From Acidobacteriota bacterium (GTDB lineage Bacteria; Acidobacteriota; Thermoanaerobaculia; Multivoradales; Multivoraceae), in the NCBI GenBank assembly GCA_029263415.1, contig JAJCXN010000058.1, positions 51,724-115,723 on the forward strand: DNA of 64,000 nucleotides, given 5' to 3'. Below the pieces are notes generated by a model. The model was not told where the DNA came from, searched no databases, and saw only the letters and a program-made list of their open reading frames with translations. Positions 49,578 to 64,000 of the stretch are shown here, one piece after another. The first letter of the stretch is position 1. Each line of letters begins with the position of its first letter. The position numbers and the translations under genes were made by a program.

Positions 49578-50037
49578 ATCGTCGCTCGTTTCGATGCCGG
49601 AACCCAACACCGACGAAATCTCAGTAGCTCAGGAATCTGTGGCCAGCGGTTCCAAGCGCATCATCCTCCAAATGAGGGACCATCCGCCGTTGGTATCACC
49701 AGTGGTATCGACCGTTGGGCTCGCGACCTCCCTGGCGGTCTTGGGGTCCAGACGTTCATCCCGAGATACGAAAACTCTCCATGTCGTGAGCCAGCGCACC
49801 CTTAGCCCCAGCGCATCTCCTTCATGGGTCCGCGTCGCCGGGTTACGAGCCCGGCTCTCATGTTGAGAGAATGGTGTGGCCCATCACGACTCCTTGGACC
49901 CTGCACCCCGCGCGTGTCCGACCGGGCCTTTCGATATCGGTGACATAGGGTCCCTTTTGAGAACCCGGCTACCTTTGGTTCATGCCATCCCATCCCACAG
50001 GCGGTGCCGCCGTCTAGCAAACCGGAGATGACTGTTC

Positions 50038-50727
50038 GTGCCTGAAGCAGACCTCTACCAACCGATCAAGCGCTTCTTGGAGGCGCAGGGATATGCGGTG
50101 AAAGGCGAGATCGGCCACTGCGACATCGTTGCGGTCCGAGCCGCAGAAGAGCCGGTGATCGTCGAGCTCAAGCTGGATCTCAACTTCGCATTGGTGCTCC
50201 AAGCCGTTGATCGTCTTTCTGCTTCCGGCAAGGTCTATCTCGCCTTCCGCCTGGGCAAAGGCCGAAGCGCAACCTGGCGCAAAAAGCGCAAGCAAGTGAC
50301 CAGCATGCTACGCCGCCTTGGCCTTGGCTTGCTTACGGTGTCGGCCACAGACGAGGTAGTCGCGGTCTTAGACCCTGCGCCCTACCGACCGCGACTAGGC
50401 AAGCACCGCCAGAACCGGCTGCTCAAGGAGTTCGCCGACCGGGTTGGCGACCCCGAAACCGGTGGATCTGCGTCGCGTCAACGCCTTACGGCCTACCGAC
50501 AGGATGCGCTGAGATGCGGCCGCGAGCTGGCTCACGAGGGCGTTCTCAAAGCAGCTACTCTCAAGAAGCGAACCGGCGTCGAACGCGCCGGGCGCATCCT
50601 CATGGACAATCACTACGGTTGGTTTGAGCGGGTGAGCCTCGGCCACTACCAGCTCTCCCCTAAGGGCGAGCGCGAGCTCGCGCAGTGGGAACTTGACGGC
50701 GCGGCGGCGGGCGGACCCGACGCCTAG
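50038..50727 (+). CDS. DUF2161-like protein with a PD-(D/E)XK nuclease-fold signature
   Basis: D...ExK arrangement (GHCDIVAV ... PVIVELKL). GTG start. Confidence 0.6.
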   Translation: MPEADLYQPIKRFLEAQGYAVKGEIGHCDIVAVRAAEEPVIVELKLDLNFALVLQAVDRLSASGKVYLAFRLGKGRSATWRKKRKQVTSMLRRLGLGLLTVSATDEVVAVLDPAPYRPRLGKHRQNRLLKEFADRVGDPETGGSASRQRLTAYRQDALRCGRELAHEGVLKAATLKKRTGVERAGRILMDNHYGWFERVSLGHYQLSPKGERELAQWELDGAAAGGPDA

Positions 50728-51480
50728 GGTTTCGTCGTCACCAGCCGAAGCGAGCGAGGTCGGGCGTCGCGCGCTTAGAGCTTGACTCACTCAGCAGCAC
50801 CACCGGTCCTTGCTTGACGAGTACCAACGCGCGACCGGCATTCTCAACCACCACCGGGTCGTTGGACCGAAGCGCTACAGCACGCTTCAACAGCTTGGCT
50901 GCTTGAGACCAATCGTGCGCCGGCGGCAATGAGCGTTGAAACCGTTTCGACGCGAGGCCTCCGTTCCTACCCTTACCTCGTATTTGCTGGGGTCACTTCA
51001 GGCCGGCTCCGAAGGCGGTCGCAGTGCTCGTTGCGCACGAGCCACAGCCGGGCTGAGCAGCGAACAAGGAGGCTAGGCTTCCAAAAGAGAATGAAAAAGT
51101 TCTTGACTTGGCATGTCGCTCGCCGCTAACCTGCGCGACCCTTCGGGTTCGGGCGTTCTTAAACCGCTCGCCTTCAACTACCGACACCGAAAACCGACCA
51201 ACACTTCTCTTGACCGATACCACCATGTTGTTCAACACCAACAGTCCGCGCAAGCCGCTAAGCAATCGGCACCAAGACCAGGCGTTTCTGCGTCAGATGA
51301 CCTTGTGCGCGTCGCACCAATTCGCGCCGACAAACTTGCACAACCACACCTTTGGTCAAGACGACGGAAGATCACGTCGCAAAGCAACGGCGCCCTCGAA
51401 CGCGATCGAGGAGTTCGGCAACCGGTAGTTAGCTCTCAAGAGTTCTCGTGGAATTCGAAAGAATCCCACACCTTCTCTTT

Positions 51481-51518
51481 GGCCTTCCGGTGACGTCTCG
51501 TCTCGGAAGGCCTTTTTT
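51481..51518 (+). terminator. Rho-independent terminator
   Basis: GGCCTTCCG-(14-nt loop)-CGGAAGGCC followed by TTTTTT. Confidence 0.6.
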
Positions 51519-51691
51519 CGTTCTGGTGTCTTTTGTCGATCGAGCAATGTCTCATTCGAAGATTCACCGAAACTCAGAAACAAATTCACTACTTTCAACC
51601 CGCCGGGGCCAAGCGGCGCTCTTTGGAGCGTTCCGTTCTGGCATCGGACGAAGGTGAGTTGGAAACCACTGGCGTTTACCGCCCTCCACAT

Positions 51692-51764
51692 TAATGGATA
51701 GCTCAACTGGTAGAGCACTGAACCAGGGATTCAGCTGTTGCGGGTTCGATTCCTGCTCCAACCG
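51692..51764 (+). pseudogene. Degenerate tRNA-like sequence (tRNA pseudogene or att-site remnant)
   Basis: Canonical D-arm (TAGCTCAACTGGTAGAGCA), a 5-bp anticodon stem, and a T-arm (GCGGG-TTCGATT-CCTGC). However, only 4 of 7 acceptor-stem base pairs form, the anticodon loop CCAGGGA lacks U33, and no CCA is encoded. Confidence 0.4.
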
Positions 51765-52220
51765 CGCCGCAAGGCGCACCAAAACCAAAACCGGCGGGGA
51801 CCCCGCTCAACAACAATGTTCTCGCGTTCTTTGACTTCGCAAGATGGATGGCAAGACGCGTGGCGAGACAAGTAGTGCCTTGCAACGAGGCCTCCGCTTT
51901 TCGGCAGAGCTGCAAACGCAGTCTTGAAATCTCAATGTGCGCTACGGCGCTTGACGAGCCCTAGAGATTGCGGCGCAGCAACACCGCCCAGCGAACCTCT
52001 CGTTCCGTGCTCTTGCTCCGTAGCGTTTGAGTTGGACGGGCCCCCAACGGACTTGGCATCCATTCATTAGTTCCATCTCAACACCGTCGTTTCCCACGCG
52101 GATCATCAGCTCAGCGTCGCGGATTCCCTGCGACCTCAACCGCGGTTCCTCTTTGACTTCTTGCGCAGTGCAAGAAGTTCAGGGCACTGCTCTCACACCA
52201 GCACCAAAAGGAGGTGCACC

Positions 52221-53369
52221 ATGCTTTCGATTTTCATGAGGCTGACCTACATCCAGACCGCCCAGCGCGCGGTCCTCTACCGCAACGGGGATGCCGTGCG
52301 CGTGTTGACCAAGGGCTGGCACTTGCTGCCGGCCTGGCCGTTGCCGTACCGCGTGGAGGTTTTCAACATCGACGCTCCGTGGCTTGATGGATGCACCGAG
52401 GGCTCAAACCTCGCTGCATCCGGTGAAGAGCTTGACCGCTTGCTGCGCCGTGGCGTCCTAGGTGGACACGCAGAGACCGTCGAAATCGGTGACGACGAGC
52501 GTGCTTTGGTTTGGGTGGACGGCCGCTACAGCCAAACACTCGGTCCCGGTCGGTATGCCTACTGGCTTGGTGCCACCGAGGTCCGAGTGGAGCGTTGTGA
52601 ACTTTCCGCAGGGCGCATTGCGCACCGGCAGATCGCAATCGTTCTTGAAGTCGAGAGCGGCCGGCGAGGTCTCATTCAAGTGGCGGATGTTCCGTCCGAG
52701 AATCTGGCTTTGGTCTACCGTAACGGTGAACTGCTCGAGACCTTGACCGCTGGCCGTTATGGCTACTGGCTCGGTCTCGGCCGGCTCTCCGTTCGGTTGG
52801 TCGATCTGCGCGAGCAGGTGCTGGATATCGCAGGTCAGGAACTGATGACGGCCGACAAGGTCACTCTTCGGTTGAACGCAACGCTCGGCTACCGCGTCTC
52901 GAACGCGGAGCTTGCGCAGCAAGTCACCCAGGAACCCGACCAGGCTCTCTACCGTGAGGCGCAGCTCGCGCTGCGTGCGGTGGTCGGCTCCAAGGACCTC
53001 GAGACCCTGCTTGCTGACCGTGAATCGGTGGCCGAAGAGCTCGCCTCTTTGGTCGCTGATCGCGCTAACTCAATGGGCCTTACGGTCACCACCCTCGGCA
53101 TCCGCGATGTCGTCCTTCCCGGAGAGATGAAGACCATCCTCAACCGGGTCATGGAGGCCAAGCGGGCCGCCGAAGCCAACCTGATTACCCGGCGTGAAGA
53201 AACTGCAGCCATGCGCTCGCAGGCGAACACGGCAAGGATGCTCGAGTCCAACCCCACGCTCATGCGTTTGCGTGAACTGGAAGTTCTCGAGAAGGTCGCC
53301 GACAAGGCCAACCTTCAGGTTGTGCTTTCAGAAGGCGGTCTCACCGACCGTCTGATGAAGTTGGTTTGA
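52221..53369 (+). CDS. SPFH/band-7 (stomatin/prohibitin-like) domain protein with a duplicated N-terminal module
   Basis: Strong ribosome-binding site (AAAGGAGGTG, 5 nt spacer, ATG). Two N-terminal repeats (GPGRYAYWLGATEVRVE / AGRYGYWLGLGRLSVRL). C-terminal SPFH domain plus coiled coil. Confidence 0.8.
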   Translation: MLSIFMRLTYIQTAQRAVLYRNGDAVRVLTKGWHLLPAWPLPYRVEVFNIDAPWLDGCTEGSNLAASGEELDRLLRRGVLGGHAETVEIGDDERALVWVDGRYSQTLGPGRYAYWLGATEVRVERCELSAGRIAHRQIAIVLEVESGRRGLIQVADVPSENLALVYRNGELLETLTAGRYGYWLGLGRLSVRLVDLREQVLDIAGQELMTADKVTLRLNATLGYRVSNAELAQQVTQEPDQALYREAQLALRAVVGSKDLETLLADRESVAEELASLVADRANSMGLTVTTLGIRDVVLPGEMKTILNRVMEAKRAAEANLITRREETAAMRSQANTARMLESNPTLMRLRELEVLEKVADKANLQVVLSEGGLTDRLMKLV

Positions 53370-53433: not shown

Positions 53434-53796
53434 TCAAGGCAATTGCCAAAGGCCCTGCTCAACCCCCCCAAGAAGAACGATCGCGATCGTGCCCCGGCCG
53501 GCGATCTCCATCGATTCGATCGCCACAGTCGCCCCTCTACCTGCGGCCTCCCTTACCGCACGGTCTAGGTCCGCGACCCGCAGGTACGGTCGAGTGGTTG
53601 GCGTTTCTTGATCATGCATGGGGGCACGGATACCGCACAACGAGCCATCCGGTAACGCCGCGACTCGCGCGTTGCCCAGCTCGGGCGCCTCGGCGTCGAA
53701 GTGCCAACCGTGGACGTTCGAGTAGTAGTCGGCTACGGCCTGCACCTCTTTGGTGATGATCTCTAGGTAGTAGATCGCGTTCTCAGCGACAGCCAT
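53434..53796 (-). CDS. VOC-family (glyoxalase-fold) protein
   Basis: 120 aa. VOC-like (YYLEIITKEVQAVADYYSNVHGW...). Confidence 0.7.
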   Translation of the reverse strand: MAVAENAIYYLEIITKEVQAVADYYSNVHGWHFDAEAPELGNARVAALPDGSLCGIRAPMHDQETPTTRPYLRVADLDRAVREAAGRGATVAIESMEIAGRGTIAIVLLGGVEQGLWQLP

Positions 53797-53961
53797 ATGT
53801 CTCCCTCCTGAGTCTGTGAATCGCGCCCTGTACTCTCGGCGCCACTCAGCGCGGAGACTGAACGGTCACGCCGCCTAGGACCGTGTTTCGAAAACACCTT
53901 GAGCGCCGAGTTCGAGGCAACTTGTTGATCCCGGGCCATTCTATCGACCCTGCCTGTGCGC

Positions 53962-54050
53962 CGTTGCCTCGCGCTGTGCCGCGCTGTGCCGTGCCGTGCC
54001 GTGCCGTGCCGAGCCGTGTTGTGCCGTGTTGTGCTGTGATGTGCTGTGCA
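53962..54050. repeat. Tandem repeat: GCGCTGTGCC x2, then about 12 pentamer units (GTGCC/GTGTT/GTGCT...)
   Basis: Seen directly in the sequence. Lies in a non-coding stretch of about 1.4 kb (53.8-55.26 kb). Confidence 0.8.
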
Positions 54051-55267
54051 TGACGACCCAGCTATCGCCCTACCGTTTGAGAATGGAAAGGAGAGTGGCC
54101 CGTCAACAAGGATCGCCATCCTGAAGGCTTGTCGGTCATGGCAAGGGAGTGTCGGCCGAAACCCACTCGTGGTCGCCGTGGTCTCACATCTCCTCGGGAA
54201 CTCGCGTTCGCAATCGGTATTCGGATCGCAGGCGGTTGCAGCAGGCGCCAACTCTCTTTGTCCTCTCGGCCGGCACCCGAACCGGAGAACTGCGGCGGCG
54301 ACGATCAGAACTCTCGCGTGCGGCGGGCCCCTGCCGCGGTGGCTTCTATCCAGTTTCCGAACCGCTGCCGACCGCTCGCTCATCGTTGTTAATGCCGAGC
54401 CTTGGTTTCTAAGGCAGCGATATGCGCCTCACTAGAAATTGAAGGCCAATGACTAGAGATTGTTCCATCGATGTCTCCTCCAAGGATCCGGGCGTGCAAC
54501 GTCTTGCGGGCTTGAGTCAAGCAACCGTCGCTAGCCCGTGGCGGCGGAAGCTCTGCCCGATTGGTAGCAGGCCAGAGGCTGCATAGCCGGACGTCTGCTG
54601 CACATGGTTCGGCATCTACCAAGGGAGGGCCCGCGCTCAACGGGACAGCCGGAGTCACGTTTCCTAGCGATCGGAGCCGGACGCCGCCGCCCGGAACGCG
54701 ACAACCCGAAGCGCTCGAATATTTTCGTGAAACTCTTTGGCTGGCCAGCGGGATTTGGGGTGAGCTACTAAGCCCAAAGAGTCATCGTTGCGAGCACCAC
54801 CATGCACCCGAGCGCACCCAAACAGCAGGGGGAGGCAACGAGCGAGCGCGCGACAAGCAACGCGTGCCCGGCGCTTGTGAAAGGCGCGTCAAACTCAGCG
54901 CCCAATAGGCCTGGTCTTGGCACAGGACTGATCGGTGAACAGGGAGTTGTTGCCGAGCTACTTGGTGTGCGTCAGCGCTCGCGAATGCCGCTTCCGATGC
55001 GATGAGGAGAGATGAAGGCACGCGCGAGAGCTGCCTGTAACAAGCAGTTTGGACCTTGGGCGTCGTCGCTCGCATGACTTCGCACGTAGACAGCCGAGCT
55101 CGCCTGCACTACTCTTAAATTGAGACGGTAAATTTCAGAAGGGCTACTTGAACGTTTTTGGGGCCCTGTGAAACTGCTGCGGCCTTGAGCAGCGGCTGAA
55201 ACTGAGGCCCAAGACCTCGGACATCGAGGTCACCAAGTCCAGAAGGACGAACCCGGGGGAGCAGGTT

Positions 55268-57676
55268 ATGAGAGAGGCAACGAGTCCAAATCTGAATGAC
55301 GCCATCAGCGAGATCGCGCACGACCCCGTCTTTACTCAAGGTAGCTTCGAGGACGTCGTCAAGCTTATCGTTGAACACACCGGCCGCGCGCTCGGTTGTG
55401 CGCGGGTCAGCGCTTGGGAGTACCACCACGCAGACCACAAGCATATTCAGTGCATGACGCTTTGGGACGAGGAGAGCGGCGGTTATAGCGGCAACGGTGC
55501 GGTCTTGGATGAAGACGACGCTCACTCCTACTTGAATGCGTTACGGAAGGATACGGTGCTGGCGATGGACGACGTCAGTACGGATCCACGGTGCGCAGAG
55601 CTCATGAAGGAATACCTACCTGCGCACAAGATTCGGTCAATGCTGGATGCCCCTTTCCAATACGACGGAAAGTTGGCCGGCGTCATTTGCGCCGAGCACG
55701 TTGGAGCGAGAAGACGCTGGACCCGAAAGGAACAATCCTTTAGCGCCAACATAGCGAGCCTGCTTTCCATCGCAATGGAGAGAGATCAGCGGCATAAGGC
55801 TGAGCAGGCCCTCTTGCAGGAGAAGGAACGCTACCGGCAACTCGCTCACACGTCCCCCGCGGGCATTGTCATTACAGTGAATGGCGTTATCGAGTTTGCC
55901 AATCCGGCGCTAAACAAGATCGTCGCAGCAGAGGACACCGACGACCTCCGGGGCCTACGCTTCAGTCGTTTCTTTTCGCCGCCTGAAGCTGCACGAGCCC
56001 ACGACCGTCAGCAACCCATCCTTGCTTCCAAATCGGCCCTGTCGCCCACAGAGTACAGAGTGCCGCAGAAGGACGGCTCGAGCCTCTACCTGGCCGTGTC
56101 CTCGAGCTTCATTCAATGGAATGGGCAGGACGCAATTCAATCCCATGTTCGGGATGTGACTGGGGCGGTCATCGATCGCCAGGGATTGGAGCGTTTTGCA
56201 GAACAGTTGCGCATTCTGTCCCACTCGTTTCCGGGCGGCTTCACCTATACCGACGGCGATCTGGTTTACCGAAATGTCAACAGCACATTTGCGAGGTGGT
56301 GCAACACCAGTAACGACTTGATCGTGGGGCAGAATGTCCGCGAGTTCCTTGGAGAAGATCTCTATGGTGAATTCATGCCAGACATTGAGACCCTCCTTGC
56401 CGGTCAAACCGTCACCTTCGAGTTCACTTTTCGCCACTCTGAGCAGGCGGCGCGCGAAGTCCGAATTTCCCATGTCCCTGACACGGATGTGGAGGGAAAG
56501 GTGCGGGGCTTCTTTACTCTGATCACCAACCTGACCGAAGCCAAGGAGACTGAAAGGGCGCTCCGACATGCTCAGAAGATGGAGGCGGTTGGTCAGCTCA
56601 CGGGCGGACTGGCCCACGACTTCAACAATCTGTTGATGATTGTGATGGGCAGTCTGGAACTCATCCAGGATGAGCTACCCGAAACATTGAAGCCGAATCC
56701 GTTTCTGGAAAGTGCCCTGTCGGCATCGCAGCGCGGGGCAGACCTGACCCGCAAGCTGATGGCCTTCTCCAGGAAGAACCCCCTCCAGTCCGAGACGGTT
56801 AACATCAATAGCACTCTCAAGAAGCTACTTAGTTTGCTCAACAGGACACTCACTGCCTCGGTCCTAATAAGAATGGAACTTGAGCCCGAGCTGGCGACCG
56901 TCTACGTCAACGAAGGCGATCTGGAGAATGCCATTCTGAATCTTTCTCTCAACGCCCGCGATGCCATGCAAGGCGCCGGAACACTGACTATCACCACCCA
57001 GAATGTTGAGGTCGACGACCAGCACTATGCCCTCTTGTCGGTGCAAGATGACGGTGGCGGCATCGCCGAATCGATCAGGGACAGGGTCTTTGAGCCTTTC
57101 TACACGACCAAATCCGTCGACAAGGGCTCTGGGCTCGGCTTGAGCATGGTGTACGGGTTTGTTAAGCGCTCAAACGGCATGATCGATCTCGAGTCTGAAG
57201 AGGGCACGGGAACGACTTTCAACATCCACCTTCCCCGTTTCACCGCCGGGGCCAGGCCAACATCAGACCAACAGCGAGAGTGCGCTCCGCTACCCAGGGG
57301 CAGCGAAACCATCCTGGTGGTCGACGACGAGATCCAACTGTTGCAAACGGTGACTCGCATGCTGGGGGAACTTGGTTATCAGACCATTACTGCCGAGTCA
57401 GGAACGGCTGCCCTTGAGAAGCTCCGGACGCATCCCGGTATCCAGCTGGTCCTCACCGATGTCGTGTTGGGCGGCGATATGGACGGCTATGACCTTGCAT
57501 TCCGAGCCTGTGAAGAGTTGCCCGGCGTCAAGATCCTGCTCTCGAGCGGCCACAGCAAGCTAGACCTGGCAAGTCTTGACAAGGCCTTGCCCGAGTACCG
57601 GCATTTGCCCAAGCCCTACAAAATGGCTGAGCTGGCCAAGTCGATTCGCAGCGTGCTGGAGGATAGCCTGGCGTGA
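55268..57676 (+). CDS. Hybrid sensor histidine kinase (GAF - PAS - PAS - HisKA - HATPase_c - REC)
   Basis: H-box (LAHDFNNLLMIV), N/G boxes, and a C-terminal receiver domain (ILVVDDE...D). A GGGGGAG ribosome-binding site precedes the ATG. Confidence 0.85.
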   Translation: MREATSPNLNDAISEIAHDPVFTQGSFEDVVKLIVEHTGRALGCARVSAWEYHHADHKHIQCMTLWDEESGGYSGNGAVLDEDDAHSYLNALRKDTVLAMDDVSTDPRCAELMKEYLPAHKIRSMLDAPFQYDGKLAGVICAEHVGARRRWTRKEQSFSANIASLLSIAMERDQRHKAEQALLQEKERYRQLAHTSPAGIVITVNGVIEFANPALNKIVAAEDTDDLRGLRFSRFFSPPEAARAHDRQQPILASKSALSPTEYRVPQKDGSSLYLAVSSSFIQWNGQDAIQSHVRDVTGAVIDRQGLERFAEQLRILSHSFPGGFTYTDGDLVYRNVNSTFARWCNTSNDLIVGQNVREFLGEDLYGEFMPDIETLLAGQTVTFEFTFRHSEQAAREVRISHVPDTDVEGKVRGFFTLITNLTEAKETERALRHAQKMEAVGQLTGGLAHDFNNLLMIVMGSLELIQDELPETLKPNPFLESALSASQRGADLTRKLMAFSRKNPLQSETVNINSTLKKLLSLLNRTLTASVLIRMELEPELATVYVNEGDLENAILNLSLNARDAMQGAGTLTITTQNVEVDDQHYALLSVQDDGGGIAESIRDRVFEPFYTTKSVDKGSGLGLSMVYGFVKRSNGMIDLESEEGTGTTFNIHLPRFTAGARPTSDQQRECAPLPRGSETILVVDDEIQLLQTVTRMLGELGYQTITAESGTAALEKLRTHPGIQLVLTDVVLGGDMDGYDLAFRACEELPGVKILLSSGHSKLDLASLDKALPEYRHLPKPYKMAELAKSIRSVLEDSLA

Positions 57677-57719
57677 GGCCGACACCCTTTCCGCCAAAGG
57701 TCATCTACCTTGCAAAGCG

Positions 57720-57930
57720 TCTAACGGACTCTAGTGCCGCGGCACGGCCGAACGGCGCGCGGCAACACTGGAAGCGTCGCAACAGCAACGGATCTCGTGG
57801 CCAGCTGCCCCGGAAAACGGCACCTCTCCGAACGGCCGGTCGCTGCCGAAGAGCCCAGATAGTTGGCCACTGGGAGATCGACACGGTGGTCGGTGCTGCT
57901 GCGTCAACAGAGAGTACAGAGGGCTCATAG
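57720..57930 (+). pseudogene. IS30-family transposase fragment (central DDE-domain entry segment), 5'- and 3'-truncated
   Basis: The translation ...WKRRNSNGSRGQLPRKTAPLRTAGRCRRAQIVGHWEIDTVVG matches the IS30-family consensus ...RG.lP..i.eRP..v..R...GHWEgDli.G. There is no N-terminal HTH region and no downstream catalytic core. Confidence 0.5.
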
Positions 57931-57976
57931 GCGTAGTCCTTGTCCTACCGCAGGGGTCTACTAGTGAGCCTGTGCT

Positions 57977-58052
57977 GCATAACGGCTGGAATTCAGCGCC
58001 AATGCCGGCCGCGAAGCGGACGGTGGTTGTCCGCCGCAATGATTTGTTAGGC
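57977..58052 (-). repeat. attC-like site H (76 bp)
   Basis: Ends GCATAAC...GTTAGGC. Confidence 0.45.
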
Positions 58053-58062
58053 GGCGCACAAT

Positions 58063-58443
58063 TCAACCCGTCATAGTGGGTTTTTGCAATACAGCACCGA
58101 CAATATGCGCCACTGCGGCCACAGCCAGGAGAAGCTCACCCACGAAAGGTCCCACGAAGACGAGCAGCAATACGGCATCGGCCGCGACCACGGCGGATGA
58201 CAATGCAAGCACGATTCTTGACAGGCGTGATGGCAACCATGCTGCTACCACCGCGACCACAGCTATGAACAGCCAGTGGAGGGAAGCGTACAGCCACAGT
58301 CCCTTGGCCGCAGATTGGAGGAACTCGGAAACACCCTCGGCTGAGGTGTCCCGGACGACGATGGCATACCCCGTCGCATGGAAGGCCGAGGTAGCTGCCA
58401 GGACCACCGAGCCGAACAAGACAGAGATTTGAGAGCGCTTCAT
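58063..58443 (-). CDS. Cassette ORF: small membrane protein (126 aa, 4 TM)
   Basis: Hydrophobic throughout. Followed 3' by attC H. Confidence 0.5.
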   Translation of the reverse strand: MKRSQISVLFGSVVLAATSAFHATGYAIVVRDTSAEGVSEFLQSAAKGLWLYASLHWLFIAVVAVVAAWLPSRLSRIVLALSSAVVAADAVLLLVFVGPFVGELLLAVAAVAHIVGAVLQKPTMTG

Positions 58444-58467
58444 CTACCACATACCATTGTGCGCGAC

Positions 58468-58593
58468 GCCTAACGGACTTAGCTCAGCTGCGCCGCTGGT
58501 TGGCGTGCTTAGCTTGAAATAGCGTTTCCTCATCTCCGACACTATAGTGGATTGCGCAAGCGCGGGCGGTTTCTACTGGGGCGTGTAGATATG
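58468..58593 (-). repeat. attC-like site A (about 126 bp; its 3' core is degenerate)
   Basis: Starts GCCTAAC-GGACTTAGCTCAGCTGCGCCGCTG. The 3' end reads GTGTAGA rather than a clean GTTRRRY. Confidence 0.5.
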
Positions 58594-58600
58594 CAGTCGC

Positions 58601-58804
58601 TCACGAGGCACCCAGACTCCTAAGAGCCGGGAAAGCCAACCCGGCGACAACAATGACGCCGAAGACGAGACCCTTGACTGCAAGCGACCGCAGCGATGAT
58701 CGCCAAACCTCGCCGTCATCGACCGGATTGCTCCAGCCCTCAGGCTCATCATCGTCGAGGGTGACGAGGCGTCCTATAAAGACCCAGCCCACGAGCCCAG
58801 CCAT
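58601..58804 (-). CDS. Cassette ORF: small hypothetical protein (67 aa)
   Basis: The only ORF of reasonable composition between attC A and attC B. An overlapping alternative frame exists. Confidence 0.3.
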   Translation of the reverse strand: MAGLVGWVFIGRLVTLDDDEPEGWSNPVDDGEVWRSSLRSLAVKGLVFGVIVVAGLAFPALRSLGAS

Positions 58805-58908
58805 CTACCAGATGTAAGGTAAGGCCAGCAAAGCAAGACAACGCCACCCCGACAGCGATGACTCTTCCTACTGTCCAAGACGAGAGAGCCTCATCTTCGA
58901 TCGCCGCT

Positions 58909-58974
58909 GTACAACGGACACTTAGCTCAGCTGACTGCGCCTTGGCGCCGGACTGCAGCAATTGGTTGTTGGGC
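58909..58974 (-). repeat. attC-like site B (66 bp, short class)
   Basis: Ends GTACAAC...GTTGGGC. Confidence 0.5.
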
Positions 58975-58984
58975 TGCAAACACG

Positions 58985-59245
58985 CTACTTGCGATGAACA
59001 ATCTTGTCGTATTGCCCGTGGGTTCCGATCCAGAACCATAGAAGGGTCTCGGAATCACGGACGGCCAACGAACCGGTAACGCATGCCCACGCGGACAGAC
59101 CAGAATCGACGGACTCTTTCAAGTGCAGTGAGGGATGTCTTGGGTTGGCCTTGAGCAATTCGAAGTCTGCATCTGCGAGCGAGCGCACCGACTCGGGCAA
59201 ACTGTCGTACGACGACCTGAACTCCGCGGTGGCCTGATGGTTCAA
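58985..59245 (-). CDS. Cassette ORF: RelE/StbE-family toxin
   Basis: The C-terminal segment (...LLWFWIGTHGQYDKI) is typical of RelE/YafQ/HigB-type mRNA interferases. Its start overlaps the antitoxin stop; the exact start codon is uncertain. Confidence 0.55.
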   Translation of the reverse strand: MNHQATAEFRSSYDSLPESVRSLADADFELLKANPRHPSLHLKESVDSGLSAWACVTGSLAVRDSETLLWFWIGTHGQYDKIVHRK

Positions 59246-59442
59246 AGAGGTCGGGTATCGCCCCGGCGATGGGCCGCCAAAGCGGTATCGGCGAGCCCAT
59301 CGAGCTTCCCTGCCACTACATCCCGCTCGAACCGCTCGTCCCACGCGAGCGCGTCGAATTCCTGAAACCAGTCGCGAAACCGCGAAAGTTCTCCAGGCCC
59401 CAGATTCTGCACAGCTTGGTCGATCTCTTCGATCCCACTCAT
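59242..59442 (-). CDS. Cassette ORF: small antitoxin-like addiction-module component (66 aa)
   Basis: MSGIEEIDQAVQNLGPGELSRFRDWFQEFDA...; the position and size fit a cognate antitoxin immediately upstream of the toxin. Confidence 0.5.
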   Translation of the reverse strand: MSGIEEIDQAVQNLGPGELSRFRDWFQEFDALAWDERFERDVVAGKLDGLADTALAAHRRGDTRPL

Positions 59443-59473
59443 GCCTCGATCAGACGAGATGACTGGCGCAGCA

Positions 59474-59565
59474 GCCCAACGTCTCGCGATTCTGCTGCGC
59501 CGCCCGCATGCCCGCATGCGTGTACCGACCACTTCTTCGACGTCAGTAGCAATCGTTTGTTGGAT
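59474..59565 (-). repeat. attC-like site K (92 bp)
   Basis: Ends GCCCAAC...GTTGGAT. Its arms are related (AAC..GATT.CT / AGCAATCGTTTGTT). Confidence 0.45.
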
Positions 59566-59707
59566 GGCACGGAGGCAACGCAAACCCAAGTGTTCTAACG
59601 GGGCCTGCATGGGATAATCCTGCACGTCTGGAGCAGCCGCCAGCCGCTCCGCCCAGAACGGGACGGCGGCTGGGTAGAGTGATAACGCCGCTTGCTATGG
59701 TTAGCAC

Positions 59708-60106
59708 ATGATATCGACGATTCGATCGACCTTGCGCAGCATCGGAGCCGTGCTGGCGGGTTTTGCTGTGATCGCACTGGGAACGGTCTTCACCTTCACG
59801 GTTCTGGTTGGCGACTTTGGCTACGCCACGTCCAGTCCAACCGAGCTGGTGATTGGAACTCTCGGCGCCCTGGCCTCCGGCCTCGCGGGCGGACTCGTTG
59901 CAGCCCGGCTCGCGGCAACACATCCGCTGAGGCACGCAGCCGCGCTAGTCGTGCCTATCGCGCTCGACACGGCCAGCATCGTCGCTTCGGCGGGCCAGGA
60001 ATCCGATCCGTTGTGGTTTGACCTCGGCGGCAGCGCGATCCTGCTGCTCGGCGCCTTTGTCGGGGGCTACCTGGTTGTTAAGAGACACCGCGAGCCGGCG
60101 TCCTGA
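59708..60106 (+). CDS. Cassette ORF in reverse orientation: small membrane protein (132 aa, 4 TM)
   Basis: Good hydrophobic periodicity. It is the only protein-like ORF between attC K and attC C. Confidence 0.35.
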   Translation: MISTIRSTLRSIGAVLAGFAVIALGTVFTFTVLVGDFGYATSSPTELVIGTLGALASGLAGGLVAARLAATHPLRHAAALVVPIALDTASIVASAGQESDPLWFDLGGSAILLLGAFVGGYLVVKRHREPAS

Positions 60107-60213
60107 ACTGACGCAAGGCCGGACTGGCGTACCCCACGATCTCAGTGAGGTCAGACCTGTTCAGCAACAGCTTGGTCGGCTGCTCTCGGCCAGTGGACAA
60201 GCCCGGTAATGCC

Positions 60214-60339
60214 ATCTAACGGACTTAGCTCAGCAGCGCCGATGTCGGGCGCGCTGAAGTTGAAAGTGGATGGCACATCTTCAAGAGGATAGCTGAACGC
60301 GCGAGCACGAGCGGCGACTGCTGCCGTGAGTAGTTGGGC
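60214..60339 (-). repeat. attC-like site C (126 bp)
   Basis: Ends ATCTAAC...GTTGGGC. Confidence 0.6.
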
Positions 60340-60656
60340 TGACGCCGAATCGGCGGGCACTCCAATACTGCGGCTTTTCGACTCTGCCTGGCGACCGCAA
60401 CAACTTCCACTTGGCCTTGTCCGAGAAGGCGATACACCAAGGGGTATGGGTACTGGTTGGGAAACACAAACTCGTGACAGCCGGACGGTCCGCGACGGTA
60501 TCTTCCCGGGTGCCTCGAAACCGACACCAGGCCGCGCTCTAAAGCCTGCAGGACACCGCGTGCAGCAGACAAACTGCGTTCCGCGTACCAGTCACGAGCA
60601 TCCGTGGCCTCAGCAAGAGCGGCCGGATGCCAGCGCAACTCACTCGAAGCCATCAA
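60225..60656 (-). CDS. Cassette ORF: ParE-family toxin, with no cognate antitoxin gene adjacent. The ORF reads through into attC C, so the stop has probably been lost.
   Basis: The first 95 aa or so are ParE-like (...CHEFVFPNQYPYPLVYRLLGQGQVEVVAVARQSRK). The last 40 aa or so are encoded by the conserved repeat. Confidence 0.5.
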   Translation of the reverse strand: MMASSELRWHPAALAEATDARDWYAERSLSAARGVLQALERGLVSVSRHPGRYRRGPSGCHEFVFPNQYPYPLVYRLLGQGQVEVVAVARQSRKAAVLECPPIRRQPNYSRQQSPLVLARSAILLKMCHPLSTSARPTSALLS

Positions 60657-60674
60657 ACAGCGCCGACCTCACAC

Positions 60675-60775
60675 CGCTGACACAAAGAGAATGTGACGGG
60701 CTTGCCAGTATCCTCAACGACCGACCGCGAAAGAGACTCGGATTTCGAACACCACGGGAGTGCTTTTATGGCTAG
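60675..60775 (+). pseudogene. IS30-family transposase C-terminal fragment
   Basis: ...LTQRECDGLASILNDRPRKRLGFRTPRECF* matches the IS30-family C-terminal consensus LN.RPRK.LG..TP.E.F. It sits where a ParE antitoxin gene would be expected. Confidence 0.5.
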
Positions 60776-60815
60776 CTACCGATGTTGCGCTTCAAACTTG
60801 AAGTCAGACTGCAAC

Positions 60816-61439
60816 TCAAACGAGAGCGACCGCATCGAACCCGGTTCCGACGACGTGAGAGCCACCGAAGAGAAGTGCCTTGGGTAGACACTCCTCCTTC
60901 TGGGTCGACACTGCGGCCGCAGATGCTGCTGGCTCTGCACTCAGCATCCTTGGCCGCATCTCGTGATCCAGGAGAACCTGGAAATACTTCTCGCAAACGC
61001 GCTTCGGCGCCGTCGCCAGTTGGCCGTGGCCGGCTTCAAGCAAGCTAACGATGGGCAAGCCTGTATTGACAAAACGACGAAAACGGAACCAACCTTTTGT
61101 AATGTCCTCATGCGCATTCAGGAGCCCTGCTACAACCGCGGCGGGGTCTGCCGGGGCCTGCGAAAAGTACAACGCCTTGGATGGTTCGGAGTACGGCCAG
61201 AGCAGTGGATGGGAGCTGACTAGAGAAATCCAGTCATCCCACGGACGCTCCACTGAGTAGCACAGGGCCTGCTCGCAGCTAACGCACCACATCTCATCCT
61301 GGTCGCCTCGATCTGGCCGTCTAACCATCAGCTTTAGCTCGAGCCCATCACCCTTCAAATCTAGGGAACGGAGCCGGATCCAGCCGTTGTCTTCAAACTC
61401 GTCTGACTCAACTACTGCGGCTAGATCGGAGAACGGCAT
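60816..61439 (-). CDS. Cassette ORF: hypothetical protein (207 aa)
   Basis: Unique, Trp-rich sequence (WISLVSSHPLLWPYSEP...). No family recognised. Confidence 0.45.
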   Translation of the reverse strand: MPFSDLAAVVESDEFEDNGWIRLRSLDLKGDGLELKLMVRRPDRGDQDEMWCVSCEQALCYSVERPWDDWISLVSSHPLLWPYSEPSKALYFSQAPADPAAVVAGLLNAHEDITKGWFRFRRFVNTGLPIVSLLEAGHGQLATAPKRVCEKYFQVLLDHEMRPRMLSAEPAASAAAVSTQKEECLPKALLFGGSHVVGTGFDAVALV

Positions 61440-61447
61440 CGTACGCA

Positions 61448-61530
61448 GCCCAACGGACTTTCATCACTGGCACAAACCGTAGCGAGCGCAGCGCGTGAGG
61501 GTTTGTGTCCAGTGCATGATGTTGTTAGGT
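61448..61530 (-). repeat. attC-like site G (83 bp; central hairpin CACAAACC/GGTTTGTG)
   Basis: Ends GCCCAAC...GTTAGGT. The GNAT stop codon lies within the 3' core. Confidence 0.55.
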
Positions 61531-62019
61531 GCCGCCGGCGCGGATCGCACCGTTAAGAAGAGTTCGACCGTCTTGGAACTCAACCAGCCCGAAGTCACGA
61601 TAGAGATCGAGAGCTGGCACGTTACCTTCGCCGACCTCGACGTACAGGGACTTGCAGTTCCGTTGTTCGCACTCACGGACCACCTTCTCGACCAGGGAGC
61701 GTGCGATTCCTCGGCGCCGAGACTCCGGCCTGACGTATAGGTCGTCGATGTACCCACTGAGCGCTCCATGTTCCATCGTGTAGCGCACAGTAAGTACAGC
61801 ATGCCCGGCAGGTACACCGTCTCGTTCGGCAATCCAAACGCAACCTAGCCCAGCGTCCTCCAACAACCTGACGAAGGAGGCCTTGGCCCATTCGGGGTCG
61901 AGCGCGAACTCCGATTCGGCATAGAAGTCGCGCATGAGGTCGACAAGAGCCGCGACGTCTGTACTCCCAGCTCTCCGAACAGCGAACTCGTTGACCGACA
62001 TGTTCTTTCGCGAACTCAC
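61525..62019 (-). CDS. Cassette ORF: GNAT-family N-acetyltransferase
   Basis: Acetyl-CoA binding motif A is present (YVRPESRRRGIARSLV). Confidence 0.8.
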   Translation of the reverse strand: MSSRKNMSVNEFAVRRAGSTDVAALVDLMRDFYAESEFALDPEWAKASFVRLLEDAGLGCVWIAERDGVPAGHAVLTVRYTMEHGALSGYIDDLYVRPESRRRGIARSLVEKVVRECEQRNCKSLYVEVGEGNVPALDLYRDFGLVEFQDGRTLLNGAIRAGGT

Positions 62020-62024
62020 AAGGA

Positions 62025-62150
62025 ACCTAACGGACTTAGCTCAGCTGCGCCGCTGACAGGCGCGCTGCGGCTGCAATTGAAAAGTGCATCTTCAAAAGGA
62101 TAACCGAACGCGCGAGCACCAGCGGCAACTGCTGCGGCGGATTGTTATGC
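62025..62150 (-). repeat. attC-like site D (126 bp)
   Basis: Ends ACCTAAC...GTTATGC. Confidence 0.6.
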
Positions 62151-62160
62151 GGCGCGTCGA

Positions 62161-62622
62161 TCAGAGCCAGCTCCAAACGAAGCCGAACGCGGTAACGCAA
62201 CCGACAAGCGCGAGCACCACACTGAAACGTGCCACGGAACCCAACCTTCCCGAGAGCCCCTCGAACCCTGCGTCGCGGTGAACGAGAGGAACAACGATCG
62301 CGTTGGTGCTCAGTAGAGCGATGAGCGGCCAGATCGGAAGGAAGGTGAAGGTAGAAGGAGACAAAGGAAGAGGACCGTGGCTCACGGTGAAGCGGGACAT
62401 GGCGCCGATCACCAGCGCAAGAGTCGTGAGAGACCAAATGAAGATCGGTATGCACCACGCCGATCTCGGCAGGCTGGTACCTCGCTGCCTGTAGCGCCGT
62501 AACGCCACGAAGACAACCACGGCCTCAGCCACCAGTGTGGGCCAAAAGAACTTGAGTCCCTCTAGGGAAAAACTCTCGTAAAAGGAGTCGACGATGACGC
62601 CGTACTGGTTCAACCCTCGCAA
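62161..62622 (-). CDS. Cassette ORF: membrane protein (about 150 aa). The start codon is non-ATG and uncertain.
   Basis: 4 TM helices. The nearest upstream candidate start is TTG. Confidence 0.5.
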   Translation of the reverse strand: MRGLNQYGVIVDSFYESFSLEGLKFFWPTLVAEAVVVFVALRRYRQRGTSLPRSAWCIPIFIWSLTTLALVIGAMSRFTVSHGPLPLSPSTFTFLPIWPLIALLSTNAIVVPLVHRDAGFEGLSGRLGSVARFSVVLALVGCVTAFGFVWSWL

Positions 62623-62626
62623 CGCC

Positions 62627-62752
62627 GCATAACGGACTTAGCTCAGCTGCGCCGTTGACCGGCGCGCTGCGGATGAAACTGAGATCTTCATGTCCAACAG
62701 GTTAGCGGATTGCGCCAGCACGAGCGGTGTCTGCTGCTGCGAGTTGTTGGGC
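62627..62752 (-). repeat. attC-like site E (126 bp)
   Basis: Ends GCATAAC...GTTGGGC. Confidence 0.6.
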
Positions 62753-62768
62753 CGCCGGAGCAGGAACA

Positions 62769-63086
62769 CTACACCCACGCCACAGCGAACGAGAACAGGC
62801 AGAACGAGGCGACGAACACGACTAGCCAAGCGTGATCGGCCGGCCGGAGCCTCTTCCGATAGAGCTCGTAGAGATAGAACGGGAAGCCGGAAAATCCGAC
62901 CAGCAAGAAGAGAAGAAGCGGCACCACCAACCAGCCCCCGGGCCATATCGGAGCCAAGAACGGAGGCGCTTCCCTCCCGACCCTCAACGAGAAGCCGACG
63001 GCGGCCTCGACCCAGCATGCGATGGAGCCCCAGAAAAAGAAGAGCCAGGACAACGACTGATCTTCAAGGTGCTCTTCGCGGCCCAA
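62769..63086 (-). CDS. Cassette ORF: small membrane protein (about 100 aa). The start is uncertain and may lie inside attC F.
   Basis: 2-3 TM helices. It has no ATG. Confidence 0.45.
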   Translation of the reverse strand: MGREEHLEDQSLSWLFFFWGSIACWVEAAVGFSLRVGREAPPFLAPIWPGGWLVVPLLLFLLVGFSGFPFYLYELYRKRLRPADHAWLVVFVASFCLFSFAVAWV

Positions 63087-63206
63087 CGGACTTAGCTCAG
63101 CTGCGCCGCTGACAGGCGCGCTGAAGTTGCAATTGAGTTCTTCATCGACAAAAGACTAGCTGATTGCGCGAGCACCGGCGGCGACTGCTGGGGCGAGTTG
63201 TTGGGC
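63081..63206 (-). repeat. attC-like site F (126 bp)
   Basis: Ends GCCCAAC...GTTGGGC. The heptamers are exact reverse complements. Confidence 0.6.
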
Positions 63207-63211
63207 AGCTT

Positions 63212-63562
63212 CTAGACATCGGCAAGCTCTTGCTTCCGAGGTGGGCGAATGTCTTTCAGGTTGCGCTCAGCACAGGCACCGACACGCCGATAGTTTGCCC
63301 TCGCGGTACTCAGGCTCAGTCCTCCGTTCGGACCACCTCGAACTACGTCGGCCTCGTGTTCATCCTGGCCATCGTCCTCCCAGAAGCAAACCGGACAGAT
63401 CTCGTACGCCGCGCGCTCGTCCAGAGTACGGCACATGCAACAAGGGCACCGAAGGGGCAGATTGCGCGGCGTCTCCTCCAAGCTTGTCGCGTACGCCCTA
63501 AACCAATCTCTACGACGCGCCAGTTCAGCAGCATCCTTCGAATCGCCGCCACGGCTAACCAT
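63212..63562 (-). CDS. Cassette ORF: CPCC-family cysteine-rich protein
   Basis: CPCCMCRTLDERAAYEICPVCFWEDDGQDE matches the CPCC/DUF4262-like small-protein signature. Confidence 0.65.
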   Translation of the reverse strand: MVSRGGDSKDAAELARRRDWFRAYATSLEETPRNLPLRCPCCMCRTLDERAAYEICPVCFWEDDGQDEHEADVVRGGPNGGLSLSTARANYRRVGACAERNLKDIRPPRKQELADV

Positions 63563-64000
63563 GAGCTTGCTGGTGACTGCCCAACTACTTACTCACTTGC
63601 AGGATAACGAACACTCCTGTTTTCGATCACTGCGCCTTTTCCGCAGCGATTACTTTCTCGGCCCGGCTACAAACCGCGCGTCCACCCTTTGGCAGTAGGG
63701 GTTATCGCGTTCTCCGGTATCTTGCCATACCGCACTACACTGCGTGAATCGCAGCGTAGTGTGAGGAGGAAGATCACGCAGTCCTTTCGTTTTCATTATT
63801 CGTCGAGTGGGCTCCGGATACCGGTGGCGCCCAGGCCGGCAACATGGGTGTAGACCATCGTTGAACGAAACCGCTGACGCGGTAGCTCCTGCTTCTCCTC
63901 CTTCTTCCTGACAGTTCCTCGAGCGCTGGCCATAGCGGTGGCGGCTACGGTGGGAGTTTGTCTCGCGCAATGGAGCGCGTTTCAAACGAGAGGAGTCCCA

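What the first reader, a model, noticed from the sequence alone, without database searches (positions are those of the whole stretch)
58046..63087. Neighbouring attC sites obey the cassette-boundary rule (the GTTRRRY of one site is the reverse complement of the RYYYAAC of the next)
Take each site's (+)-strand 5' heptamer and the 3' heptamer of its left-hand neighbour:
- A GCCTAAC / H GTTAGGC: exact
- K GCCCAAC / B GTTGGGC: exact
- G GCCCAAC / C GTTGGGC: exact
- D ACCTAAC / G GTTAGGT: exact
- E GCATAAC / D GTTATGC: exact
- F GCCCAAC / E GTTGGGC: exact
- C ATCTAAC / K GTTGGAT: one mismatch
- B GTACAAC / A: degenerate

This is what integrase-mediated crossover at G|TT predicts. The six bases after the crossover point belong to the next cassette and match that cassette's own inverse core. 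Random palindromic repeats would not show this cross-boundary linkage.
Basis: seen in the sequence. Interest (0 to 1): 0.8.

Follow-up and report, generated by a model that had tools for sequence, protein, structure and literature searches.

The report
Integron cassette array obeying boundary rule
The repeats are the recombination sites of an ordinary chromosomal integron, a bacterial gene-capture array, and the heptamer linkage across each cassette is real, but it is the textbook footprint of how integron cassettes are cut and pasted.

Summary
All heptamers sit at the stated coordinates. Adding the next core to the right (GCCCAAC, 63579) gives nine cassette-flanking pairs. Seven are exact reverse complements, one (K/C) has a single G·T wobble, and one (A/B) has decayed. 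The two heptamers of the same site differ by 2-3 bases in seven of eight sites. Joining each cassette's ends in silico restores a 9-10 bp terminal stem in seven of eight sites.

It is an integron cassette array of nine cassettes (421-1234 bp). Eight attC sites (66-126 nt) are fully delimited. Of the ninth (H), only the 3' arm is secure. Five sites belong to one ~126-nt family. The array lies in a chromosome that looks Acidobacteriota/Thermoanaerobaculia-like. An integron-integrase 3' end (probably decayed) lies at 63797-63890 on the minus strand, pointing the same way as the cassettes. This is the known "inverted integrase" layout.

One correction: the cassettes read on the minus strand, and the plus strand is the recombining bottom strand.

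The mechanism has been known since the 1990s. This is a new member of a known kind, and interest is low.

The parts
63797..64000 (-). 3' end of an integron integrase gene (intI), running off the window. Only the last ~30 codons (63797-63890) are recognisable, and the gene is probably decayed.
   Evidence: The translation ...STMVYTHVAGLGATGIRSPLDE* matches TIGR02249 'integron integrase' at profile positions 285-313 of 315 (E = 2e-4). It also matches PDB 2A3V IntI4 residues 288-318. The ~37 codons upstream match no integrase profile in any frame, the expected LGH motif reads PRQ, and an in-frame stop lies near 63983.
63579..63796 (-). attI-like region. It runs from the intI stop codon to the first core site (GCCCAAC on +, which is GTTGGGC on -, at 63579-63585).
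   Evidence: The core is an exact complement of F3, and the match extends to 9 nt. The region does not fold as an attC-type hairpin, and the covariance model does not hit it. This is what an attI would show. Function not tested.
63087..63584 (-). Cassette 1 (498 bp): attC F (63081-63206) plus ORF 63212-63562, a CPCC cysteine-rich protein.
   Evidence: Pfam PF14206, E = 8e-27. attC F scores 152 bits with model R1. Both flanking heptamers are GCCCAAC/GTTGGGC.
62633..63086 (-). Cassette 2 (454 bp): attC E (62627-62752) plus ORF 62769-63086, a small hydrophobic protein.
   Evidence: E3 GTTGGGC and F5 GCCCAAC are exact complements, and the match runs to 10 nt. The ORF has no family hit.
62031..62632 (-). 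Cassette 3 (602 bp): attC D (62025-62150) plus ORF 62161-62622, a membrane-like protein.
   Evidence: D3 GTTATGC and E5 GCATAAC are both non-consensus yet exactly complementary, and the match runs to 11 nt.
61454..62030 (-). Cassette 4 (577 bp): attC G (61448-61530, 83 nt) plus a GNAT acetyltransferase ORF at 61525-62019.
   Evidence: PF00583, E = 6e-21. G folds as a long hairpin with z = -4.3 and has two bulged bases on its 3' arm. G3 GTTAGGT and D5 ACCTAAC are exact complements.
60220..61453 (-). Cassette 5 (1234 bp, oversized): attC C (60214-60339), a ParE toxin ORF (60225-60656), an IS30 transposase remnant (60665-60766, + strand) and a 207-aa ORF (60816-61439).
   Evidence: ParE_toxin PF05016, E = 3e-11. 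The IS30 C-terminal match has E = 1e-7. C3 GTTGGGC and G5 GCCCAAC are exact complements.
59480..60219 (-). Cassette 6 (740 bp): attC K (59474-59565, 92 nt) plus ORF 59708-60106, the only cassette ORF on the + strand.
   Evidence: K3 GTTGGAT and C5 ATCTAAC differ by one base, which forms a G·T wobble on the + strand. The match is 12 nt with that one mismatch.
58915..59479 (-). Cassette 7 (565 bp): attC B (58909-58974, 66 nt) plus two ORFs that overlap by 4 nt (59242-59443 and 58985-59245).
   Evidence: B3 GTTGGGC and K5 GCCCAAC are exact complements, and the match runs to 10 nt. Gene calls on Logan contigs give the 66-aa and 86-aa ORFs. Neither has a family hit.
58474..58914 (-). Cassette 8 (441 bp): attC A (58468-58591, decayed 3' arm) plus a doubtful 67-aa ORF at 58601-58804.
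   Evidence: A3 is GATATGC and B5 is GTACAAC, giving 3 mismatches. This is the one broken pair. A still scores 115 bits with R1.
58053..58473 (-). Cassette 9, the last one (421 bp to the H3 core): ORF 58063-58443, a membrane-like protein.
   Evidence: H3 GTTAGGC and A5 GCCTAAC are exact complements. The same sequence appears in two independent Logan assemblies.
57719..58052 (-). Terminal site H. The 3' arm and core at 58018-58052 are secure. A possible 5' arm lies at 57719-57765, with an IS30 transposase remnant (57796-57897, + strand) in between.
   Evidence: The motif AACGGACT(C)TAG at 57723 aligns to the 5' arm of the repeat family, but the score only equals the background maximum. The IS30 match is NF033563 E = 5e-4 and tblastn E = 0.018. 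A shorter alternative site (57978-58052) does not fold as a hairpin.

Best explanation
This is the cassette array of a chromosomal integron.

Each repeat is an attC site, an imperfect palindrome bounded by RYYYAAC and GTTRRRY. Its bottom strand (here the + strand) folds into a hairpin that an integron integrase recognises. [quoted passage not shown] Cassettes leave the array as circles by attC x attC recombination and enter at attI.

Because the cut lies one base inside the 7-bp core, six core bases stay with the neighbouring cassette. In the array, each attC is therefore a chimera. The two cores that flank one cassette are the true pairing partners.

Shown here:
- the across-cassette complementarity and its statistics;
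- restoration of a complete attC on in-silico circularisation;
- hairpin anatomy and strand polarity;
- an integron-integrase 3' end next to the array.

Inferred:
- that an integrase produced the pattern;
- that the array reads from the attI-like core at 63579-63585 leftwards on the - strand, downstream of and co-directional with intI;
- that the local intI is now defective, so the pattern may be a preserved historical footprint.
For: - The heptamer pairs are confirmed, and the observed pairing is the optimum of 362,880 permutations (P = 1.3e-4).
- Within-site pairs mismatch by 2-3 bases.
- Complementarity extends to 8-11 nt; flank-only P = 0.002.
- Circularised cassettes regain 9-10 terminal base pairs in 7 of 8 sites, and the folding energy improves by 1.7-8.3 kcal/mol.
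- Five sites form a ~126-nt family with 74-81% identity to the reference copy. In the structure given to the model, 88% of cells are paired, with compensatory changes in the terminal stem.
[quoted passage not shown] That is the published hallmark of the bottom strand (PMC5027507).
- Nine of the ten cassette ORFs are on the - strand.
- The integron-integrase C-terminus is recognised by TIGR02249 (E = 2e-4) and by PDB 2A3V.
- Cassette sizes (421-1234 bp) and contents (GNAT, ParE, CPCC, small membrane proteins) are typical.
- Array G+C of 59.7% is within the host range.
- Two independent assemblies are 100% identical over 53740-60241.
Against: - No intact integrase is visible. Only ~30 codons match, the upstream 37 codons do not, and there is an in-frame stop.
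- No sigma-70-type cassette promoter was found.
- One boundary (A/B) violates the rule, and site H lacks a clear 5' half.
- The energy and G·T difference between the strands is small: -172.7 versus -167.7 kcal/mol in total, and 15 versus 10 G·T pairs.
- No related attC arrays were recovered elsewhere, so there is no comparative evidence that these cassettes move.
Confidence: 0.93

Rival explanations
1. The heptamer matches come from a strong consensus. GCCCAAC/GTTGGGC dominates the sites, so neighbours match by chance and there is no real cross-boundary linkage.
For: Four of the nine 3' cores are GTTGGGC and four of the nine 5' cores are GCCCAAC. Random pairing therefore already gives 2.1 exact matches on average. 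Among those four cassettes, the flanking bases do not single out the observed pairing; it ranks 2nd to 4th of 24.
Against: All four rarer core types also pair correctly or nearly so: GTTAGGC, GTTAGGT, GTTATGC and GTTGGAT. The observed arrangement is the global optimum (P = 1.3e-4). Within-site pairs built from the same heptamer pool mismatch by 2-3 bases. The eighth position covaries in 7 of 9 pairs (P = 0.004).
Confidence: 0.02
2. The repeats are a non-integron family of palindromic elements (REP/BIME-like, MITE-like or terminator-like). They happen to sit between genes, and the short inverted repeats flanking each gene are terminal repeats of small transposable units.
For: Each unit is bounded by 7-11 nt inverted repeats. 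Transposase remnants lie in the region. No intact integrase is visible.
Against: The boundaries are the canonical integron cores RYYYAAC/GTTRRRY. The sites have attC anatomy: a terminal stem, an unpaired spacer, a second stem with bulged bases on one arm, and a variable loop. An integron-integrase C-terminus abuts the array. The repeats occur nowhere else in the 64 kb, whereas dispersed REP or MITE families would.
Confidence: 0.03
3. The array is a genuine integron array but a fossil. It is either a cluster of attC sites beside a dead integrase, or a block displaced by rearrangement from a functional integron elsewhere. The heptamer rule records past events and nothing recombines now, except perhaps through an integrase supplied in trans.
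For: The integrase remnant is decayed: an in-frame stop, loss of the LGH motif, and only 30 matching codons. It points toward the array rather than away from it. Sites A and H are degraded. IS30 remnants and an oversized fused-looking cassette are present. Arrays without a working integrase are common (PMC4889954).
Against: Seven of nine boundaries are still perfect, and most attC hairpins are intact. That argues against long neutral decay. Only 204 bases of the integrase lie in the window, so its state cannot be judged. The co-directional layout is also a known functional architecture (PMC3607928).
Confidence: 0.45
4. The array has the opposite polarity. The + strand is the top strand, the cassettes read left to right, and the insertion site is at the left end near 57719-58046.
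For: The complementarity rule cannot distinguish the two polarities. The difference in folding energy between the strands is small.
Against: Nine of ten ORFs are on the - strand. The bulged bases sit on the 3' arm of the + strand, which is the bottom-strand signature (PMC5027507). The integrase remnant and a non-hairpin core lie at the right end. The left end abuts a histidine-kinase gene and has no integrase.
Confidence: 0.04

Closest known systems
Sedentary chromosomal integrons (e.g. the Vibrio cholerae superintegron with its VCR repeats, Xanthomonas integrons, and the taxon-specific attC families described for Acidobacteria and other phyla in PMC8352920)
   Same: - It has a chromosomal location.
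- The array has a homogeneous attC family: five sites of ~126 nt at 74-81% identity to the reference copy.
- Cassettes mostly carry one small gene of unknown function, plus toxin and acetyltransferase cassettes.
- Cassette G+C is host-like.
- Cassette boundaries follow the G|TT crossover rule.
   Different: - The array is short (nine cassettes).
- Three sites (B, K, G) are shorter and differ from the family through the centre (B keeps family-like arms).
- The integrase is co-directional and apparently decayed.
- No close relatives of this attC family were found with the exact-word scans available.
Integrons of the 'inverted integron-integrase' group (Treponema denticola and relatives; PMC3607928, PMC4889954)
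   Same: [quoted passage not shown]
   Different: The host looks like Acidobacteriota/Thermoanaerobaculia rather than a spirochaete. Only the last ~30 codons of the integrase are visible. Its phylogenetic position therefore cannot be tested, and neither can the alternative that the layout arose by a local inversion.
CALIN (clusters of attC sites lacking an integron integrase; PMC4889954)
   Same: It is an array of attC-bounded cassettes with no demonstrably functional integrase next to it. That study reports intI pseudogenes near a minority of CALIN.
   Different: A recognisable integrase remnant and an attI-like core directly abut the array. It is better described as a complete integron with a damaged integrase, or one that is only partly in view.
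Class 1 mobile integron cassettes, in which the crossover point and the chimeric nature of integrated attC (59-base element) sites were first worked out (Hall, Stokes and colleagues, 1990s; cited from my own knowledge)
   Same: The core sequences, the crossover position and the boundary rule are identical.
   Different: There are no resistance genes and no Tn402/Tn21 context. The attC sites are longer and homogeneous, and the setting is chromosomal.

Membership tests
Integron cassette array | attC sites bounded by an inverse core RYYYAAC and a core GTTRRRY | tested here: met
   All eight delimited sites carry RYYYAAC/GTTRRRY or a close variant at both ends (GCATAAC, GTACAAC, GTTATGC and the decayed GATATGC depart from the strict consensus). 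H3 and the attI-like core add two more canonical cores.
Integron cassette array | [quoted passage not shown] | tested here: met
   The circularised forms of B, K, C, G, D, E and F fold this way. The bulged A, T or C bases lie on the 3' arm of the + strand. In the family alignment, 88% of cells are paired. Site A is decayed.
Integron cassette array | Cores flanking one cassette are complementary, and a complete attC is regenerated on circularisation | tested here: met
   Seven of nine pairs are exact and one more is a wobble (P = 1.3e-4). Seven of eight circular forms regain a 9-10 bp stem.
Integron cassette array | Unit structure of one (rarely two) promoterless ORF followed by an attC, about 0.4-1.2 kb, with ORFs co-oriented with the attC top strand | tested here: met
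   There are nine units of 421-1234 bp, and nine of ten ORFs are on the - strand.
Complete integron | An adjacent intI gene: a tyrosine recombinase carrying the integron-specific additional domain | tested here: inconclusive
   Only 204 bases are in the window. The last ~30 codons match the integron-integrase profile TIGR02249 (E = 2e-4). The upstream 37 codons do not match, and there is an in-frame stop. The specific domain lies beyond the window, and the source contig could not be retrieved.
Complete integron | [quoted passage not shown] | tested here: inconclusive
   A core lies at 63579-63585, 211 bp from the intI stop. It is complementary to the first cassette's R'' and is not part of a hairpin. 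Integrase binding sites cannot be identified from sequence.
Complete integron | A cassette promoter (Pc) upstream of the array | tested here: inconclusive
   The sigma-70 consensus scan found no candidate on the - strand between intI and cassette 1. The host's promoter type may not be covered.
Inverted integron-integrase group | [quoted passage not shown] | tested here: met
   The integrase remnant is on the - strand with its stop at 63797. The cassettes are on the - strand downstream of it.
Inverted integron-integrase group | Phylogenetic placement of the IntI protein with that group | not testable with these tools
   Too little of the protein lies in the window.
CALIN | [quoted passage not shown] | tested here: not met
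   An integrase remnant lies 211 bp from the first core. If it is a pseudogene, the locus would count as a CALIN with a neighbouring intI pseudogene.

The most novel reading that the evidence does not exclude
This locus could represent a distinct integron lineage in Thermoanaerobaculia-like Acidobacteriota. It would combine a co-directional integrase with a private ~126-nt attC family whose terminal stem is effectively 8-11 bp rather than 7. That would imply an integrase that reads a longer core than the canonical enzymes.

A second possibility concerns the two IS30-family remnants. One lies within the proposed span of attC H (if its 5' arm is at 57719), and the other lies in the oversized cassette 5. 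They could mean that IS30 elements target attC hairpins and moved or fused cassette blocks.
Probability: 0.12. Interest if true: 0.35.

Novelty: new member of a known kind. Interest (0 to 1): 0.15.

Why it matters
- It confirms that the right-hand 6 kb of the window is an integron cassette array and fixes the cassette boundaries to the base.
- This allows correct annotation. Several automatic ORF calls that run through attC sites are wrong.
- It adds one chromosomal integron, with nine cassettes of mostly unknown function, to a poorly sampled Acidobacteriota-like lineage.
- It gives no new insight into mechanism. The boundary rule is the established consequence of the G|TT crossover.

Tried and rejected
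1. Extending past position 64000 to see the whole integrase failed.
   - Exact-protein look-ups for the CPCC cassette protein and for the 100%-identical ThrA (P0001) found nothing.
   - Look-ups for the histidine kinase and the 126-aa cassette protein returned only short Logan contigs that break inside attC C.
   - The cluster look-up gave no accession or name.
   - The source is an NCBI contig of 115,723 bp that these tools could not fetch.

2. Looking for related attC arrays found none.
   - The 17-mer AACGGACTTAGCTCAGC gave 17 single-copy hits in genomes and 19 in metagenomes.
   - The 24-mer gave no hits.
   - None of the loci matched the covariance model R1, so those hits are chance.

3. 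Rfam has no matching family; the only hit in the window is a tRNA-like match.

4. RNAalifold on the sites as they stand in the array did not return the attC fold. The two cores of one site are not partners, which is the finding itself. I therefore used circularised sequences.

5. CPCC homologues (60-70% identity) in Planctomycetota sit in ordinary chromosomal contexts with no attC. This gives no evidence that the cassette moves.

6. A short alternative for site H (57978-58052, starting at GCATAAC) does not fold as a hairpin.

7. The similarity at 52043 (CCCAACGGACTTGGC) is not an attC.

8. The putative toxin-antitoxin pair in cassette 7 has no Pfam or NCBIfam hit.

Full report
**Observation**

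I read 57000-64000 and extracted every RYYYAAC and GTTRRRY match. In + strand order the sites are:

| Site | Coordinates | Length |
|---|---|---|
| H | 3' core at 58046 | 5' end uncertain |
| A | 58468-58591 | 124 nt |
| B | 58909-58974 | 66 nt |
| K | 59474-59565 | 92 nt |
| C | 60214-60339 | 126 nt |
| G | 61448-61530 | 83 nt |
| D | 62025-62150 | 126 nt |
| E | 62627-62752 | 126 nt |
| F | 63081-63206 | 126 nt |

I compared the 3' heptamer on the left of each cassette with the 5' heptamer on its right. This gives 0, 3, 0, 1, 0, 0, 0, 0 and 0 mismatches over nine cassettes. The two heptamers of a single site differ by 2, 2, 2, 3, 2, 2, 2 and 0.

**Is it more than chance?**

The consensus is strong, because GCCCAAC/GTTGGGC accounts for four of nine cores on each side. 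I therefore enumerated all 362,880 ways of pairing the 3' cores with the 5' cores.

- Random pairing gives 2.1 exact matches and 14.2 mismatches on average.
- The observed 7 exact matches and 4 mismatches are the global optimum. Only the 48 permutations that swap identical heptamers reach it (P = 1.3e-4).

The rarer cores all find their partner or a near-partner. These are GTTAGGC, GTTAGGT, the non-consensus GTTATGC with GCATAAC, and GTTGGAT with ATCTAAC.

The linkage also reaches beyond the heptamer. Contiguous complementarity is 8-11 nt in six pairs, exactly 7 in one, and 12 nt with one mismatch for K/C. The eighth position is complementary in 7 of 9 pairs with varied bases (P = 0.004). The four outside bases alone give P = 0.002.

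**Circular cassettes**

- In seven of eight sites, the regenerated site has 9-10 of 10 possible terminal base pairs.
- It is 1.7-8.3 kcal/mol more stable than the same site as it stands in the array, where 0-9 terminal pairs form.
- Site A, whose 3' arm has drifted (GATATGC), is the exception.
- The K/C mismatch is a G·T wobble on the + strand, so pairing is kept on that strand.

**What the sites are**

Five sites (A, C, D, E, F) are one ~126-nt family with 74-81% identity to the reference copy. On the circularised alignment, the structure I imposed has 88% of cells paired, against 23-58% when the partners are slid. It comprises a terminal stem, a 2x1 spacer, a short stem, an internal loop and a second stem with a bulge. 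It shows compensatory changes in the terminal stem.

A covariance model built from this alignment finds the five sites (115-152 bits) and B weakly. It finds no convincing match anywhere else in the 64 kb; its one other hit, 16477-16592 on the - strand, has E = 0.32. B, K and G are shorter sites with the same ends. G is a very stable hairpin (z = -4.3) with two bulged bases.

**Polarity**

The complementarity rule is symmetric, so it cannot give the direction. Three other features do.

1. Nine of ten cassette ORFs are on the - strand.
2. On the + strand, the bulged bases lie on the 3' arm, opposite the 5'-AAC. This is the published signature of the recombined bottom strand (PMC5027507).
3. An integrase remnant and a non-hairpin core lie at the right end.

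The energy and G·T differences between the strands point the same way but are small. The cassettes therefore read right to left on the - strand. The crossover is between A and C of the + strand RYYYAAC heptamers. Cassette limits in + coordinates are:

| Cassette | Coordinates |
|---|---|
| 1 | 63087-63584 |
| 2 | 62633-63086 |
| 3 | 62031-62632 |
| 4 | 61454-62030 |
| 5 | 60220-61453 |
| 6 | 59480-60219 |
| 7 | 58915-59479 |
| 8 | 58474-58914 |
| 9 | 58053-58473 |

**Integrase and insertion site**

On the - strand, the window ends with ...STMVYTHVAGLGATGIRSPLDE followed by a stop at 63797. This matches only integron integrases: TIGR02249 at positions 285-313 of 315 (E = 2e-4), NF011946, and PDB 2A3V IntI4 residues 288-318.

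The 37 codons upstream match nothing in any frame. The expected LGH reads PRQ, and there is an in-frame stop near 63983. The gene is therefore probably damaged, though only 204 bases are visible.

It is transcribed toward the array. This is the "inverted integrase" layout known from Treponema and others (PMC3607928, PMC4889954). The 211 bp between its stop and the core at 63579-63585 do not fold as an attC and are not hit by the model. That fits an attI. No sigma-70-type promoter was found there.

**Cassette contents**

- Cassette 1: a CPCC cysteine-rich protein.
- Cassettes 2, 3 and 9: small hydrophobic or membrane-like proteins.
- Cassette 4: a GNAT acetyltransferase.
- Cassette 5: a 207-aa unknown protein, an IS30 remnant and an orphan ParE toxin.
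- Cassette 6: a membrane-like protein on the + strand.
- Cassette 7: two overlapping small ORFs arranged like a toxin-antitoxin pair, with no family hit.
- Cassette 8: a doubtful 67-aa ORF.

Array G+C (59.7%) is within the host range of 58.9-64%.

**Host and provenance**

The other 57 kb carry housekeeping genes, including RNase G, PBP2, thrA and ppiD; ORFs in the positions and sizes expected of mreBCD and rodA flank PBP2 (inferred, not scanned).

- MreB is 84-92% identical to proteins named Thermoanaerobaculia or Acidobacteriota.
- ThrA has no non-self relative above 55%.
- The source is an NCBI contig of 115,723 bp that I could not retrieve.
- Two Logan assemblies (SRR15505518 and SRR15505517) are 100% identical over 53740-60241 and 57548-59905. 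The first breaks in the repeated 5' arm of attC C. This supports the assembly of the left half of the array.

Chromosomal integrons with taxon-specific attC sites are already described for Acidobacteria (PMC8352920).

**Comparison and verdict**

The crossover between the first and second base of the core is established (PMC12901181, PMC5027507). That integrated attC sites are consequently chimeric has been textbook since the work of Hall, Stokes and colleagues in the 1990s (cited from my own knowledge).

The object is a new, unremarkable member of a known kind. Points that remain open:

- whether the integrase is intact;
- whether the array is active;
- what the two IS30 remnants did;
- whether the 8-11 bp terminal stems mean anything.

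Noticed in passing
window 57796-57897 (+) and 60665-60766 (+): Two short remnants of an IS30-family transposase lie on the same strand. They correspond to residues ~154-187 and 288-321 of a 336-aa reference. The first lies between the two possible arms of terminal site H. The second lies inside the oversized cassette 5, between an orphan ParE toxin ORF and a 207-aa ORF. Together they bracket cassettes 6-9. Possible readings are IS insertion into attC sites, or an IS-mediated deletion that fused two cassettes.
   Followed up: partly
window 60225-60656 (-): A ParE toxin ORF (PF05016 over residues 7-94) has no antitoxin gene upstream. Its reading frame continues ~49 codons through attC C.
   Followed up: partly
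window 59242-59625 (-) and 58985-59344 (-): The longest-ORF calls here run through attC K or overlap heavily. Starting at the ATG at 59443 gives a 66-aa ORF that overlaps an 86-aa ORF (58985-59245) by 4 nt. The arrangement resembles a toxin-antitoxin pair, but neither ORF has a Pfam or NCBIfam hit.
   Followed up: partly
window 51695-51760 (+): Rfam calls a tRNA here (43 bits, model positions 4-67 of 71), but ARAGORN finds no tRNA in 50000-53000. It may be a truncated tRNA gene.
   Followed up: partly
window 53950-54050: A run of short tandem repeats (units CGTGC and GCCGTGCCGT, seven overlapping copies at 10-nt spacing) lies inside the ORF 53763-54383 on the - strand.
   Followed up: no
window 63733-63763: A 12-bp stem-loop (CACTACACTGCG...CGCAGCGTAGTG; the 101-nt segment 63700-63800 that contains it folds with z = -2.8) lies between the integrase stop codon and the attI-like core. 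It has no T-run, and its role is unknown.
   Followed up: no
window 24205-26784 (+): The bifunctional aspartokinase/homoserine dehydrogenase has no relative above 55% identity among 5.8 billion proteins, apart from its own record. MreB, by contrast, is ~90% identical to Thermoanaerobaculia proteins. The host lineage appears to be sparsely sampled.
   Followed up: partly
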